Below, piece after piece: positions 6,397-9,840 of a stretch of DNA of 36,369 bases. Source of the stretch: Candidatus Hermodarchaeota archaeon (GTDB taxonomy: Archaea; Asgardarchaeota; Hermodarchaeia; Hermodarchaeales; Hermodarchaeaceae); the NCBI GenBank assembly GCA_016839805.1, contig JAEOTO010000010.1, positions 1 through 36,369 of the forward strand. Direction: 5' to 3'. Numbering within the stretch: the stretch's first letter is position 1; each line of letters starts with the position of its first letter. The notes under the pieces were generated by a model, which did no database searches, was not told the DNA's origin, and was given only the letters and a program-made list of their open reading frames with translations. The translations under genes and the position numbers were made by a program.

Positions 6397-6897
6397 TTGA
6401 TGCGGCGTTTTCTGTATGCAGACCCAACAGTGTGTGTGGGCTGTCGAATTTGTGAAGCGATCTGTAGCTTTCATTGGGAAAAAACTCTTAACCCAAAAAA
6501 AGCGCGGATTCGTGTACGACGAGTAGACCCTGGTTTAGATGTTGTCGTAGCTTGCCGCAACTGTGACCAAGCCTGGTGCATTGAAGCGTGTCCAGAGGAA
6601 GCTTTACGTCGGAACCGTCAAGGAATCATCGTAGTAGATTCGAAGAAATGTCGAGGCTGTGGCGCTTGTGTTGAAGCGTGTCCCTTTGGGGCGATCTTCT
6701 TACATCCGGATACGCAGAAAGCCATCAAATGTGTGGCCTGTGGGTTTTGCACGAATTATTGTCCTGTTAATACACTTCGTATTTTGACTGAAGAAGAACT
6801 TGCAGTATTAAAACAGCAGAAGGTCATTCAGCATGAATGTTCTAATCTCTTGGATGAGTTACGTGTTGAACGAGATATTAAGGAGAGGAAATCATGA
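6397..6897 (+). CDS. 4x[4Fe-4S] polyferredoxin subunit (DmsB-like partner of AOR)
   Basis: CVGCRICEAIC, CRNC..CIEACP, CRGCGACVEACP and CVACGFCTNYCP; overlaps the aor start (ATGA). Confidence 0.92.
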   Translation: MMRRFLYADPTVCVGCRICEAICSFHWEKTLNPKKARIRVRRVDPGLDVVVACRNCDQAWCIEACPEEALRRNRQGIIVVDSKKCRGCGACVEACPFGAIFLHPDTQKAIKCVACGFCTNYCPVNTLRILTEEELAVLKQQKVIQHECSNLLDELRVERDIKERKS

Positions 6898-8819
6898 TGG
6901 TACGGAAAGCTAGGTTAGGTGGATATGCAGGGCAACATTTGTACGTTGACATGACTAAGGAACAATGTAAGACCGTTCCAATAGACCGCAAATTTGCAGT
7001 TACGTATCTCGGAGGACAGGGTTTTTCTTCGCGCATCCTCTACGACGAAGTTGGTCCTCAAACGGATCCACTCGGTCCTGAAAATGTCTTGATTTGGGCT
7101 ACTGGACCCTTTACTGGAACTCTCTGGCCTCAAGCATCGCGTTATGTTGTTGGTGCAAAATCTCCGTTGACCGGTATTTTTGGTGAGGCACATGCAGCAG
7201 GTCACTGGGGTCCCGAACTAAAATTTGCTGGCTTTGATACGATCATCATCACTGGACGTGCAAAAAGACCCCTGTATCTGTTAATTGATAACGGCATCGC
7301 GCAGTTACTTGATGCAAAAGATCTGTGGGGTCATAATACAAATGAAACCGAAGAGATGATTAAGGAAGCTCATAATGACCCCAGTCTCCGAGTCTCCTGT
7401 ATTGGTCAGGCGGGTGAGAATCTTGTCCGCTTTGCAGCGATTATTAATGACTATGACCGAGCTGCGGCACGTTCGGGAATCGGGGCTGTAGCTGGGAGTA
7501 AACGTCTCAAAGCTGTTGCTGTTCGTGGTAGTAAGGATATTCCTATCGCGAAACCCGACCGATATCTTGAGGTTATAGAAGAGTTACACAAAAAAATGTT
7601 GGATAGCCCCTTTACGACAAGCCGGGCGCAATACGGAACTACCAATCTTGTTGAATTGATGCAGGAAATCGGACGTCTTCCAAGTTACAATATGCGGTCT
7701 GGCGTTTTCGCTGAATACAAGAAAATAAGTGGAGAAGCCATCAAGGACCATTACCTCGTCAAACCACGTGCCGATTATGCGTGCTTGCAACGATGTGGAA
7801 GATATACGCTTGTAAGAACAGGACCCTATGCCTATTGTGGCGGAAGCCCTGAATACGAATCTCAATCAGCATTGGGAAGTCGTTGTGGCAATGATAACCT
7901 CGAATCCATCTTATATGGACATCATTTGAGTAACTTGTATGGGCTAGATACAATATCCACCGGTTCCACGATCAGTTGGGCCATGGAGGCTTGGGAAGAG
8001 GGACTTATTACCGCAAAAGACACAGGTGGAATTGATTTGGAATGGGGAAATCATGAGTCAATTATTAAACTCATTCATATGATTGCACATCGTGAAGGAT
8101 TTGGAGATATTCTTGCTGAAGGAAGTTATCGGGCAGCAAAGCGCATTGGGCGAGGAACGGAAAAATTCGTGATGCACTGCAAAAAACAAGAAATTGCCGG
8201 TCAGGAACCTCGGGCTCAAAAGTCGATGGGATTAGCCACCGCCACGGCAGCTCGTGGCGCTGATCACCTATACGCATTTCCAGTTTTGGATGAAGTTGGA
8301 TTTGATGAAGAGATAGGCATTCGATATGGTCAGGAATATTTACCTGAGATTGGAGACCGCTTAAACCCCAAGTTTAAAGGTATTATGGTAAAAGAAAACG
8401 AGGATTTCTGCGCTGTGGTTGAATCGCTTGGTGTCTGCAAATATGGAACACTAATTCCACCAGTTCTTTTCTATGAAGATATTGTTGCTGCATTCGAGGT
8501 TACAGTGGGAATTCACCTTACAGAAGCACAGTTCCGTCAAATTGGAGAACGGATTGTAAACCTAAATCGAGGATTTAATGTTCGCGAAGGAATTCGTCGA
8601 AAGGATGATTCGTTACCACGCCGCCTCACCCACATCCCTGCACCTGAAGGTCCCTCCAAAGGTCAAGTGGTCGAATTAGATCAAATGTTAGATGAATACT
8701 ATGAACAGAGAGGATGGCAATTAAAGACGGGATTACCAAAAACACAAACATTACATCGACTGGATCTTGATGACGTGGCAAACGATCTACTTAAACAAGG
8801 GATAAAATTACCTCAGTGA
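6894..8819 (+). CDS. Aldehyde:ferredoxin oxidoreductase (AOR/WOR) family tungstoenzyme, copy 1
   Basis: KSPLTG, WGPELKFAGFD, IGQAGENLV, GSKRLKAV, PEYES, GLDTISTG, RGADHL and YY..RGW. Confidence 0.95.
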   Translation: MMVRKARLGGYAGQHLYVDMTKEQCKTVPIDRKFAVTYLGGQGFSSRILYDEVGPQTDPLGPENVLIWATGPFTGTLWPQASRYVVGAKSPLTGIFGEAHAAGHWGPELKFAGFDTIIITGRAKRPLYLLIDNGIAQLLDAKDLWGHNTNETEEMIKEAHNDPSLRVSCIGQAGENLVRFAAIINDYDRAAARSGIGAVAGSKRLKAVAVRGSKDIPIAKPDRYLEVIEELHKKMLDSPFTTSRAQYGTTNLVELMQEIGRLPSYNMRSGVFAEYKKISGEAIKDHYLVKPRADYACLQRCGRYTLVRTGPYAYCGGSPEYESQSALGSRCGNDNLESILYGHHLSNLYGLDTISTGSTISWAMEAWEEGLITAKDTGGIDLEWGNHESIIKLIHMIAHREGFGDILAEGSYRAAKRIGRGTEKFVMHCKKQEIAGQEPRAQKSMGLATATAARGADHLYAFPVLDEVGFDEEIGIRYGQEYLPEIGDRLNPKFKGIMVKENEDFCAVVESLGVCKYGTLIPPVLFYEDIVAAFEVTVGIHLTEAQFRQIGERIVNLNRGFNVREGIRRKDDSLPRRLTHIPAPEGPSKGQVVELDQMLDEYYEQRGWQLKTGLPKTQTLHRLDLDDVANDLLKQGIKLPQ

Positions 8820-9037
8820 ACTGCCCCGACCTGAAGGACAGGGCTTCCTGCTTCATGCCATCGACCATTGTCGACTGGTCCACAGGCTCTACTCGCCGTT
8901 CCGGCGATGTTGCCCGGTGATCTAGGACATTGGTTCTCAGTCCCCACTAGGACTTCATCAGTGGATTCCCATTGGAGTATTTAAACTCCCCTTGATTCCT
9001 CCTTGCCCTTAATGACTGGGTCTTCTCAAAACTTTAG
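8816..9037 (-). mobile_element. Non-autonomous IS200/IS605 (TnpB-type) element, 222 bp, retaining LE, TATA box and reRNA-like scaffold
   Basis: Minus strand: TTAT (9041-9038), degenerate LE hairpin, TTTAAATA, hairpins at 8893-8907 and 8858-8878, then GAAGCAGGAAGCCCTGTCCTTCAGGTCGGGGCAGTTCAC (RE). Removing 8816-9037 restores CCT CAA TAA (P-Q-stop) at the aor end. Confidence 0.85.
8978..8985 (-). promoter_or_regulatory. Archaeal TATA box inside the IS605-derived element
   Basis: TTTAAATA with a purine-rich upstream segment. It begins 27 nt upstream of a dead-end ATG AAG TCC TAG at 8958 and points into the reRNA-like scaffold. Confidence 0.5.
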
Positions 9038-9162
9038 ATAAAATGAAGTTATGCGTTAACATAAGCAAGGTTTAAATTGTGACTTAGCTGAGTGAGTCAA
9101 CAGCGGGGCTTTGTACTTTAATGCCCAATACATTCTGAAAAATTTTTGGAGCACGAAGAAGA

Positions 9163-9840
9163 ATGAAAGTCCTTGTGACCGGTCCACACCTCTCAGGGAA
9201 GAGTATGTTAATTGAACACTTAGCTAAAGGCAACGTCATAAATATTCAAGCGAACGGAACCACCGTGGGACTCGATCATGGTGTCTCAAATGTTTTTGGA
9301 ATTCCAATCCGATTATTTGGAACCCCGGGTCTAGCCCGATTCAAAGTATTGCGTAGAATTATTTCGGAGGGCGCAGATGGCATTCTCTTTGTAGTCGATG
9401 CAAGTAACCCTGAAGGAGATGCAGAAGCCCGTTACATTTGGACAGAAATCAGTGATTTGCTACCGAATGTTCCATGTATCGTCGCTGCTAACAAACAAGA
9501 TCTTCGTGTTTCTAGAACTCCCGAAAGGATTCGCCATGACTTGAGTTTCATGGTTGGAGTCCCAGTAATACCAATTAGTTGTAAAACAGACTATAATTTA
9601 GAAAAACTTCTTCCAGCAATGACCATGTTAATTACATACGAATGGAGCCCACTACTTCGAGCTTTCGGAATAAAAGGACAAATTACCTTTTCTGATCTAG
9701 CGACTAACCTTAACACCAATGAGGGAAAAGTTCGAAGTTATTTACGTTGGTTTGAACTACGAAAAATGGTGATTGTGGACTGGGATAAAAAAACAACGCA
9801 GCTAGCCCCTGGAATTATTAAAATCCTTACTCAACAGTAG
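9163..9840 (+). CDS. MglA/CvnD-like small GTPase with C-terminal winged-helix-like domain
   Basis: G1 GPHLSGKS, G2 GTTVGLDHG, G3 GTPGL, G4 NKQD and G5 SCK. The C-terminal ~60 aa (ITFSDLATNLNTNEGKVRSYLRWFE...) look wHTH-like. Confidence 0.85.
   Translation: MKVLVTGPHLSGKSMLIEHLAKGNVINIQANGTTVGLDHGVSNVFGIPIRLFGTPGLARFKVLRRIISEGADGILFVVDASNPEGDAEARYIWTEISDLLPNVPCIVAANKQDLRVSRTPERIRHDLSFMVGVPVIPISCKTDYNLEKLLPAMTMLITYEWSPLLRAFGIKGQITFSDLATNLNTNEGKVRSYLRWFELRKMVIVDWDKKTTQLAPGIIKILTQQ

What the first reader, a model, noticed from the sequence alone, without database searches (positions are those of the whole stretch)
8796..9041. Guide-only IS605/TnpB mini-element inserted in an aor stop codon without changing the protein
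A 222-bp element (8816-9037, minus strand) has a TTAT target motif, LE hairpin, TATA box, a 3-codon dead ORF start and an apparently intact reRNA-like scaffold ending GTTCAC, but no tnpA or tnpB. The reconstructed empty site reads CCT CAA TAA; the filled site reads CCT CAG TGA. Both encode P-Q-stop, because the element's TCAC end supplies the new stop. If transcribed, the ~140-nt scaffold would carry the guide UGAGGUAAUUUUAUCCCUUG, antisense to the aor 3' end. It could program a TnpB in trans against the empty allele, or act as an antisense regulator.
Basis: partly seen in the sequence, partly recalled or inferred. Interest (0 to 1): 0.72.

Follow-up and report, generated by a model that had tools for sequence, protein, structure and literature searches.

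The report
Guide-RNA mini-transposon inside aor stop codon
A 222-base jumping element with no genes sits exactly inside the stop codon of an aldehyde oxidoreductase gene of an Asgard archaeon without changing the protein, and carries only its two ends, a promoter box and the guide-RNA scaffold of a TnpB nuclease encoded elsewhere; this is a well-documented example of a kind already described, not a new system.

Summary
Window 8816-9037 (minus strand) is a 222-bp protein-less IS200/IS605-family element.

- **Empty site:** a same-genus genome (G013) carries the predicted empty site, CCT CAA TAA. Four other congeners are also empty there.
- **Insertion:** it lies 3' of TTAT and makes no target duplication. 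The terminal TCAC rebuilds the stop, giving CAG TGA.
- **Family:** the element has 216-225-nt copies, about 10 in this genome and more in 7 of 14 congeners. An exact 21-mer occurs only in Ca. Hermodarchaeum / Promethearchaeota MAGs.
- **What is conserved:** the TTTAAAT box, a spacer of fixed length (21-22 nt) but free sequence, and a 142-nt scaffold with supported base-pairing.
- **Link to tnpB:** the same scaffold ends two intact tnpB genes in this genome and at least 10 in the genus.
- **Not supported:** the "dead ORF start".
- **Not shown:** transcription, and any TnpB action in trans. No cognate TnpA was found.

Such elements are already described (omegaRNA-encoding PATEs; Meers et al. 2023). 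This scan has also reported other copies, in this genome and in another one.

The added point is that 6 of 33 copies sit in stop codons of real genes the same way, against about 6% expected.

The parts
6894..8819 (+). aor gene (aldehyde:ferredoxin oxidoreductase, 641 aa). Its last base of the Gln codon (8816) and its stop TGA (8817-8819) are supplied by the element.
   Evidence: ORF list. Pfam AFOR_N 6e-75 and AFOR_C 4e-129.
9038..9041 (-). Target / transposon-adjacent motif TTAT. On the + strand it reads ATAA, i.e. the old TAA stop plus the third base of the Gln codon.
   Evidence: Most family copies are preceded by (T)TTAT. The empty site in G013 reads CA|ATAA.
8816..9037 (-). Whole 222-bp protein-less IS200/IS605-family mini-element (PATE-like).
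   Evidence: Absent from the otherwise collinear G013 locus, with both junctions exact and no duplication. Family copies are 216-225 nt.
9021..9024 (-). Putative left DNA guide AAGA, directly 5' of the LE hairpin. It can pair with TTAT as the IS608 GL pairs with its CL.
Evidence: GAGAAGA is conserved in LE across copies.
9001..9020 (-). LE subterminal palindrome, degraded in this copy.
   Evidence: DNA fold -1.3 kcal/mol here against up to -6.7 in other copies.
8979..8985 (-). TTTAAAT, an archaeal TATA-like box. It is homologous to the TTCAAAT box about 25 nt upstream of the tnpB ATG in the full-length element.
   Evidence: 88% pairwise identity across 25 copies. C41 full element LE.
8958..8978 (-). 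Spacer of free sequence and fixed length (21 nt). It puts the predicted transcription start at about 8957-8955.
   Evidence: 35% identity, but length 21-22 nt in all 25 copies. The start site itself is inferred.
8816..8957 (-). 142-nt omegaRNA-like scaffold with six helices, ending at the RE boundary.
   Evidence: Model R1 scores 152.5 bits here. Consensus fold and pair counts. The same helices, with compensatory changes, occur at tnpB 3' ends.
8844..8847 (-). Putative right DNA guide GAAG, 5' of the RE hairpin. It can pair with TCAC.
   Evidence: AGGAAG is invariant in 25 copies.
8822..8843 (-). RE subterminal palindrome with a UUCA loop. It is also the last helix of the scaffold.
   Evidence: -5.1 kcal/mol as DNA. 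Helix 6 has 4 pairs with changes on both sides.
8816..8819 (-). Right cleavage motif TCAC, the last bases of the element. On the + strand it reads G TGA, which is the new stop.
   Evidence: All copies end GTTCAC or ATTCAC.
8796..8815 (-). Would-be guide TGAGGTAATTTTATCCCTTG, antisense to the last aor codons.
   Evidence: Position directly 3' of RE. The first 15 nt match the TTAT-flanked empty site of G013. There is no TTAT-flanked second target in this genome.

Best explanation
This is a non-autonomous, protein-less derivative of a tnpB-only IS200/IS605 (IS1341-type) element of Hermodarchaeum-like Asgard archaea.

**What it keeps.** An internal deletion removed the tnpB reading frame and left three parts:
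- the left end, with DNA guide AAGA, hairpin and the tnpB promoter box;
- the right end, with DNA guide GAAG, hairpin and TCAC;
- the whole guide-RNA (omegaRNA) scaffold, which in the parent lies inside the 3' end of tnpB.

**Shown.**
- The element entered 3' of TTAT on the minus strand, which is the ATAA that holds the aor TAA stop.
- It made no duplication.
- Its last bases read G TGA on the coding strand, so CAA TAA became CAG TGA and the protein is unchanged.

**Inferred.**
- A Y1 TnpA supplied in trans did the insertion.
- The TATA box starts a transcript of about 160 nt at about 8957. This transcript is the scaffold plus a guide copied from the aor 3' end.
- A TnpB from a related full-length element (C41:9293-10495 or C22) binds the transcript. 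It then cuts TTAT-flanked empty alleles, so that recombination restores or spreads the element.

**Why the site is tolerated.** The stop-codon position is a neutral landing site that this pair of end motifs makes silent.
For: - **Exact empty site:** found in G013 and in four more congeners.
- **Copies:** about 10 in this genome and copies in 7 of 14 congeners, all ending GTTCAC and preceded by TTAT.
- **Homology to a full-length element:** the C41 element has homologous LE (TTAT|...GAGAAGACCC-hairpin...TTCAAAT, then ATG about 25 nt later) and RE. Its tnpB stop lies in GGGGTAGTTCAC.
- **TnpB domains:** the C41 TnpB has all three Pfam domains.
- **Shared scaffold:** model R1 finds two tnpB 3' ends here, at 87 and 73 bits. 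It also finds more than 10 in the genus that carry TnpB 66-80% identical to the C41 protein, plus deletion intermediates. Helices 3-6 are kept through compensatory changes.
- **Base-pairing:** 96% of cells are paired, against 23-45% in slid controls. There are 33 double-change cells, against 13 +/- 3 in shuffles.
- **Conservation pattern:** TATA 0.88, spacer 0.35 with fixed length, scaffold 0.79, LE 0.58.
[quoted passage not shown] PATEs arise by core deletion (PMC3119063). A PATE RNA is expressed in Halobacterium (PMC4615843).
Against: - **No proof of transcription.** Only contigs were available. One wetland RNA library holds relatives' scaffold pieces, which may be DNA carry-over.
- **No Y1 TnpA.** None was found in this 87%-complete genome. 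The only one in 15 genus genomes belongs to an IS605 with other ends.
- **Scaffold differs from the tnpB-linked form.** The mini scaffold is about 18 nt longer and carries a conserved loop (CCGAGAACCAAGG) that the tnpB-linked form lacks, so compatibility with the resident TnpBs is unproven.
- **Some hosts lack the nuclease.** Three mini-bearing congeners (G002, G005, G012) show no intact TnpB of this clade in their incomplete assemblies.
- **This copy may be stuck.** Its LE hairpin is degraded, so it may no longer move.
- **Possible short guide.** A TTTT run at guide positions 9-12 might end transcription early.
Confidence: 0.78

Rival explanations
1. Inert fossil. The element is a dead deletion remnant of a tnpB transposon. 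It makes no functional RNA and persists only because its position in the stop codon is harmless.
For: - The LE hairpin of this copy is degraded.
- No cognate TnpA was found.
- Transcription is not shown.
- Copies are only 74-92% alike, so the family is old.
Against: - Decay is uneven. The TATA box, the spacer length and the scaffold are kept, while the spacer sequence and LE drift.
- Stems are kept by compensatory changes.
- This copy scores 152.5 bits, inside the 120-163-bit range of the intact minis.
- Conservation across copies could, however, reflect selection on master copies only.
Confidence: 0.17
2. Cis-antisense regulator. The transcript reads from the element into the aor 3' end and lowers aor mRNA stability or translation, independently of TnpB.
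For: - The geometry allows it, since the RNA would be complementary to the last aor codons.
- One tnpB-derived RNA in Halobacterium showed anticorrelated expression with a convergent gene (PMC4615843).
Against: - Copies lie beside unrelated genes, and most are not at gene ends.
- What is conserved is the scaffold, not the flank.
- Nothing links aor to the family.
- There are no expression data.
Confidence: 0.04
3. Assembly artefact or chance similarity. The 222 bp were placed there by mis-assembly of a repeat.
For: - The scaffold part is a high-copy repeat in the source metagenome, with depth up to about 1700 against about 15 in the flanks.
- Contigs break inside it.
Against: - Run X1 contigs join aor to the element's RE side (8400-8870) and the LE side to the GTPase gene (8949-9400) with no differences.
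- Both junctions obey the family rule exactly and reconstruct the relative's sequence.
Confidence: 0.01

Closest known systems
PATE-like, protein-less IS200/IS605 elements that encode omegaRNAs (Geobacillus stearothermophilus; Meers et al. 2023, PMC10055086)
   Same: - LE and RE without any gene.
- omegaRNA retained at the RE.
- Proposed to rely on TnpA and TnpB supplied in trans.
- The guide is the flank next to RE and matches the donor joint.
   Different: - Archaeal (Asgard) host.
- The retained tnpB TATA box sits at a fixed distance directly in front of the scaffold.
- The scaffold carries a mini-specific conserved loop.
- No cognate TnpA was seen.
- This copy lies in a stop codon.
PATEs of haloarchaea (Haloquadratum walsbyi HqIRS families, PMC3119063; the expressed PATE RNA VNG_R0052 of Halobacterium, PMC4615843)
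   Same: - No inverted terminal repeats and no target duplication.
- Near-terminal palindromes related to IS605 ends.
- A conserved short target oligonucleotide.
- Origin by core deletion.
- Terminal-only versions of about 50 bp also exist. Here three copies of about 45 nt are at C19, C45 and C39.
- UUCA-loop RE hairpin.
   Different: - Those PATEs were described before guide RNAs were known.
- Most are fused ends without a full scaffold, whereas here 142 nt of scaffold are kept and conserved.
IS608 / ISDra2, the model IS200/IS605 transposons
   Same: - Insertion 3' of a tetranucleotide, without duplication.
- Asymmetric ends: the cleavage site is 17 nt before the LE hairpin and a few nt after the RE hairpin.
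- 4-nt DNA guides lie 5' of each hairpin and can pair with the cleavage sites.
- The omegaRNA ends at RE.
   Different: - No tnpA and no tnpB.
- TTAT/TCAC instead of TTAC/TCAA (IS608).
REP / REPIN elements mobilised by RAYT transposases
   Same: Short, gene-less, hairpin-bearing repeats derived from the IS200/IS605 world and scattered near gene ends.
   Different: - REPINs are hairpin dimers served by a domesticated single-copy RAYT and carry no guide-RNA scaffold.
- No Y1 or RAYT gene was found here.

Membership tests
IS200/IS605-family element (PATE type) | Inserts 3' of a short conserved target motif and makes no target-site duplication | tested here: met
   Filled against empty site: CCTCA[222 bp]ATAAAATG against CCTCAATAAAATG in G013. 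TTAT precedes most copies.
IS200/IS605-family element (PATE type) | No terminal inverted repeats; subterminal imperfect palindromes at both ends | tested here: met
   The ends CTAAAG... and ...GTTCAC are not inverted repeats. The RE hairpin is intact. The LE hairpin is clear in the family but weak in this copy.
IS200/IS605-family element (PATE type) | 4-nt DNA guides 5' of each hairpin complementary to the cleavage sites (IS608 rule) | tested here: met
   AAGA with TTAT, and GAAG with TCAC. Position 4 co-varies (A:T at LE, G:C at RE). The rule is from PMC3201880. The exact pairing register is from memory and not verified here.
IS200/IS605-family element (PATE type) | Too short to encode a transposase; related to full-length IS605-type elements | tested here: met
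   222 bp. LE and RE are homologous to the C41 tnpB element. Deletion intermediates are L069, L074 and L075.
IS200/IS605-family element (PATE type) | Mobilised by a Y1 (HUH) TnpA | tested here: inconclusive
   No PF01797 match in this genome (87% complete). One match in 15 genus genomes, in an element with other ends. Mobility itself is shown by the filled/empty polymorphism.
TnpB omegaRNA (reRNA) | Lies at the 3' end of the element, ends at the RE boundary, and takes its guide from the flank | tested here: met
   Scaffold 8957-8816 ends at the last element base.
TnpB omegaRNA (reRNA) | Homologous in sequence and structure to the RNA overlapping the 3' end of a tnpB gene | tested here: met
   R1 hits tnpB 3' ends at 73-97 bits over the full model. 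Helices 3-6 are kept with compensatory changes.
TnpB omegaRNA (reRNA) | Is transcribed, and is bound and used by TnpB for TAM-dependent DNA cleavage | not testable with these tools
   Only contig-level RNA data. No biochemistry.
Rfam-curated RNA family | Reaches a family's gathering score | tested here: not met
   No match on the element, even at E<=10.

The most novel reading that the evidence does not exclude
The TTAT/TCAC end pair of this family may work as a stop-codon swap. Antisense insertion at any ...xyA TAA gene end gives xyG TGA, which is almost always silent.

This would let the family colonise the stop codons of housekeeping genes as preferred safe sites. It would also place its guide inside conserved coding sequence, where it keeps matching empty alleles of diverged strains. 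Here the guide matches 15 of 16 nt against a relative that is about 90% identical.

Six of 33 copies do this, including one full-length tnpB element. The genes are aor, an EF-Tu-like GTPase, a dCMP deaminase, UppP, an NTPase and RpiA. About 6% would be expected from available sites.
Probability: 0.3. Interest if true: 0.55.

Novelty: new member of a known kind. Interest (0 to 1): 0.38.

Why it matters
This is a clean natural example, resolved to the base, of the TnpA, TnpB and guide RNA parts of an IS605 transposon coming apart. The element is reduced to its ends, a promoter and a guide.

It occurs in Asgard archaea, where such elements are little described. The family, its covariance model and its candidate TnpB partners offer a compact archaeal TnpB/omegaRNA pair with a probable TTAT TAM for testing.

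The recurrent silent stop-codon insertions suggest how peel-and-paste elements find neutral sites in dense genomes. They are also a caution for annotation, because the stop codon of aor is transposon DNA.

It does not change what is known about how these systems work.

Tried and rejected
- **Rfam** (E<=10) found nothing on the element.
- **Remnant peptide.** The 44-aa minus-strand ORF 8947-8813 was compared with TnpB and showed no similarity. By eye, a different frame starting at 8886 (PVDQSTMVDGMKQEALSFRSG) matches the C41 TnpB C-terminus (PVELSALAEASKQEAPSFRAG) at 11 of 21 positions. This is a remnant and not a gene.
- **'Dead ORF start'.** Rejected, because the ATG lies in the unconserved spacer.
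- **Second targets of the guide.** 12-nt seeds of the 14 guides have a few other matches in the genome. None is flanked by TTAT, and the number is about what chance gives.
- **Expression.**
  - One RNA library (X11, wetland) has short contigs over 8816-8915 with 2-10 differences. These are relatives' copies and possibly DNA, so they are not counted as evidence.
  - No contig joins across the element, so the reads gave no empty-allele evidence in the source sample.
  - The small word shares of runs X2-X20 are not used to name habitats.
- **Cognate TnpA.** The only Y1 gene in the genus (G013:C208) sits beside a different tnpB and lacks the GTTCAC / GAGAAG ends.
- **A tnpB with the longer mini-type scaffold.** None was found in 19 family genomes.
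- **Literature.** Searches for stop-codon regeneration by IS605-family elements found no description in the held library. That is not proof that none exists.
Full report
**1. The observation**

The + strand reads ...AAA TTA CCT CAG TGA at 8805-8819, and this closes a 641-aa ORF (6894..8819). The ORF has full AFOR_N and AFOR_C domains, so it is an aldehyde:ferredoxin oxidoreductase.

Read on the minus strand, the region is:
- TTAT (9041-9038);
- then CTAAAGTTTTGAGAAGACCC... ;
- then TTTAAAT (8985-8979);
- then ...AGGAAGCCCTGTCCTTCAGGTCGGGGCAGTTCAC, ending at 8816;
- then TGAGGTAATTTTATCCCTTG.

A search of the window's own assembly found 11 further matches. The assembly is G000, 2.31 Mb in 50 contigs, 86.7% complete. 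Every match stops at window base 8816. Aligned, ten of the copies are full elements of about 220 nt. They are preceded by (T)TTAT and end GTTCAC.

**2. The empty site**

The closest congener, G013, is 90-92% identical over this locus. It matches the window on both sides but lacks 8816-9037. Its sequence reads ...GATAAAATTACCTCAATAAAATGAAGG..., i.e. CCT CAA TAA.
- There is no duplicated target.
- G009, G014, G006 and G012 also lack the element. Their aor genes end CCT GAA TGA, CCT GAA TAA, CCT AAT TGA and CCT GAA TAA.
- The insertion is therefore derived and specific to the window's lineage.
- The protein end, Pro-Gln-stop, is unchanged. The element's last four bases, TCAC, read G TGA on the coding strand.

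**3. The family**

With copies from congeners, 25 full elements align over their whole length, and sizes are 216-225 nt. The element occurs in 7 of the 14 other genomes of the genus searched and in none of 4 genomes of the sister genus. G006 holds more than 15 copies.

An exact 21-mer of the scaffold was scanned across one genome from each of 185,579 species. It occurs only in Candidatus Hermodarchaeum yapensis and three 'Promethearchaeota archaeon' MAGs.

In the probable source metagenome (marine sediment), summed contig depth over the scaffold reaches about 1700, against about 15 for the flanks. Many contigs break exactly at 8816.

**4. Anatomy and what is conserved**

Mean pairwise identity among the 25 copies, by region:

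| Region | Identity |
|---|---|
| TATA-like box | 0.88 |
| Spacer after the box | 0.35 (about random), but always 21-22 nt long |
| 142-nt scaffold | 0.79, with 46 invariant columns |
| LE part | 0.58 |
| Flanks | 0.18 |

- A box of fixed sequence, followed by a spacer of fixed length and free sequence, is what an archaeal promoter needs. It places the predicted start about 25-26 nt from the box centre. That is the first conserved scaffold base (about 8957). This is inference from general knowledge of archaeal promoters, and no start site was measured.
- RNAalifold gives six helices.
- On that structure, 96.1% of cells are paired, against 23-45% when partners are slid.
- Ten pairs show changes on both sides.
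- There are 33 such cells, against 13.2 +/- 3.2 in shuffles (0 of 500 reach the observed value).
- The controls have known limits for related sequences, but the slid control is clear.

**5. Link to tnpB**

*TnpB genes in this genome.* The genome has 13 matches to the TnpB zinc-ribbon domain above the cut-off.

*The two tnpB-linked scaffolds.*
- A covariance model of the mini scaffold (R1) finds the ten minis at 149-163 bits.
- It also finds exactly two tnpB 3' ends: C41:9285-9408 at 87 bits and C22:21756-21864 at 73 bits.
- The C41 gene (401 aa from its ATG) has HTH_OrfB, OrfB_IS605 and Cas12f1-like TNB domains.
- The C22 gene is a 404-aa homologue.

*The C41 full-length element.*
- It starts TTAT|CGAAAACTGCGAGAAGACCCTGTCCTTTAGGGTGGGGATGAATTGCGGACTTCAAAT. 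The tnpB ATG follows about 25 nt later.
- It ends ...GGGGTAGTTCAC, where TAG is the tnpB stop.
- The mini's LE, promoter box and RE are therefore those of a tnpB-only element, and the whole scaffold corresponds to the 3' coding part of tnpB.

*Which helices are shared.*
- The model alignment shows helices 3-6 kept in the tnpB-linked form through compensatory changes. For example, CGCCGG/CGGCG becomes CCGAGG/CCUCGG.
- Helix 1 is a short hairpin there. In the minis it encloses a 27-nt insert with the nearly invariant CCGAGAACCAAGG.

*In the genus.*
- Hits of 73-97 bits and 123-124 nt are attached to full TnpB genes 66-80% identical to the C41 protein.
- Three loci are deletion intermediates.

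**6. Transposase mechanism**

The family shows the hallmarks of Y1-TnpA ('peel and paste') elements:
- a tetranucleotide target;
- no duplication;
- no inverted terminal repeats;
- subterminal hairpins placed asymmetrically, with the cleavage site 17 nt before the LE hairpin foot and a few nt after the RE hairpin.

IS608 has the same layout: TTAC lies 19 nt before IPL, TCAA lies 10 nt after IPR, and 4-nt guides sit 5' of each hairpin (PMC3201880).

Here the four bases 5' of the hairpins are AAGA (LE) and GAAG (RE). They can pair with TTAT and TCAC as the IS608 guides pair with their sites.

No Y1 transposase gene was found in this genome. One was found among 15 genus genomes, in an IS605 with different ends. 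All of these are incomplete MAGs, so this does not show absence.

**7. State of this copy**

- It scores 152.5 bits, inside the 120-163-bit range of intact minis, and its RE hairpin is intact (-5.1 kcal/mol).
- Its LE hairpin has lost most pairs (-1.3 kcal/mol, against up to -6.7 elsewhere). It may therefore no longer be excisable, while its RNA part looks intact.
- The four-codon ATG...TGA lies in the variable spacer and is not a remnant of tnpB.
- The guide's first 15 nt match the TTAT-flanked empty site of G013.
- In this genome the same sequence is preceded by TCAC, so the filled site would not be a target.
- No other TTAT-flanked match exists in the genome.

**8. Stop codons as landing sites**

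I read the opposite strand from the RE flank into the element.
- Six of 33 copies close a long ORF (153 to more than 500 codons) with the element's TGA.
- None of the other two frames does so (0 of 66; Fisher p = 0.001).

All six ORFs are real genes whose domains run to the end:
- AOR;
- an EF-Tu-like GTPase, where the element is the full-length C41 tnpB element;
- a cytidine/dCMP deaminase;
- BacA/UppP;
- NTPase_1;
- ribose-5-phosphate isomerase.

Five of the swaps are silent (CAA, TTA, CGA, CTA and CGA become the corresponding ..G codon). In uppP, TGA TAA becomes TGG TGA, which adds one Trp.

A crude gene call gives 279 such A|TAA sites against 4266 intergenic TTAT/ATAA sites. The expectation is therefore about 6%, against the observed 4 of 14 copies in this genome (p about 0.009) and 6 of 33 overall (p about 0.014).

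The caveats are that the copies are not independent, the gene calls are rough, and many intergenic insertions are probably not neutral. I read this as a moderate excess that selection for harmless sites can explain. I did not find it described in the held literature. First-stage notes of this scan have seen two other cases.

**9. Comparison with what is known**

- Protein-less IS605 derivatives (PATEs) were defined in Haloquadratum, including 52-bp terminal-only forms made by deletion between the two palindromes (PMC3119063). Here, three copies of about 45 nt at C19, C45 and C39 are the same thing.
- A PATE RNA is expressed in Halobacterium (PMC4615843).

This scan has also reported other copies of this same family, in this genome and in another genome.

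**10. Verdict**

The element is a new, well-documented member of a known kind.

Its function as a trans guide for TnpB is likely but unproven. I put it at roughly even odds for this particular copy and higher for the family. The antisense-regulator idea has no support.

The recurrent silent stop-codon insertion is the only part that may add something new, and the evidence for it is modest.

Noticed in passing
G000 C19:8531-8576(+), C45:7766-7723(-), C39:4233-4280(+): Three terminal-only copies of about 45 nt. They have an LE start, a single hairpin and GTAGTTCAC, as if the core had been deleted between the LE and RE palindromes. This parallels the 52-bp forms described in Haloquadratum.
   Followed up: partly
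window 8910-8935 (minus strand); alignment A3 columns 14-43: The mini elements carry a nearly invariant loop, CCGAGAACCAAGG, inside helix 1. It is absent from the tnpB-linked version of the scaffold. Its GAAC could pair with the terminal GUUC. Its role is unexplained.
   Followed up: partly
G000 C41:9285-10590(-) (L013): A full-length tnpB-only element of the same family also sits in a stop codon. Its RE TCAC supplies CGG TGA for a convergent EF-Tu-like GTPase gene of 500 codons or more.
   Followed up: partly
L069 (G006:C14:14800-16500), L074 (G005:C13), L075 (G002:C85): Deletion intermediates. TnpB residues 149-322 are missing in L069. Only the last 65 and 39 residues are left in L074 and L075, each still followed by the scaffold and RE.
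   Followed up: partly
G000 C22:21700-23200(-) (L014): The second tnpB with a related scaffold ends GTAGCTCAC and follows directly on a tRNA-like sequence. It has no recognisable LE hairpin. Earlier notes of this scan describe tnpB cassettes among the tRNA genes of this genome.
   Followed up: no
L059 (G013:C208:1-2307): The only Y1 TnpA in 15 genus genomes. It lies divergently beside a 381-aa TnpB of another clade, and the ends do not resemble TTAT...GTTCAC.
   Followed up: partly
window 9163-9840 (+): The gene downstream of the element encodes a 225-aa Ras/Arf-like small GTPase. Its own GGTTTAAAT box at about 9070-9078 is conserved in G013, lies outside the element, and should be unaffected by it.
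   Followed up: no
L055 (G006:C14:111631-111772) and L046 (G005:C26:9565-9738): The same insertion appears to be shared by two species, since the flanks are alike. Between them the scaffold is 92% identical, against 80-81% for the LE and the spacer. This hints at constraint on the RNA part after insertion.
   Followed up: partly
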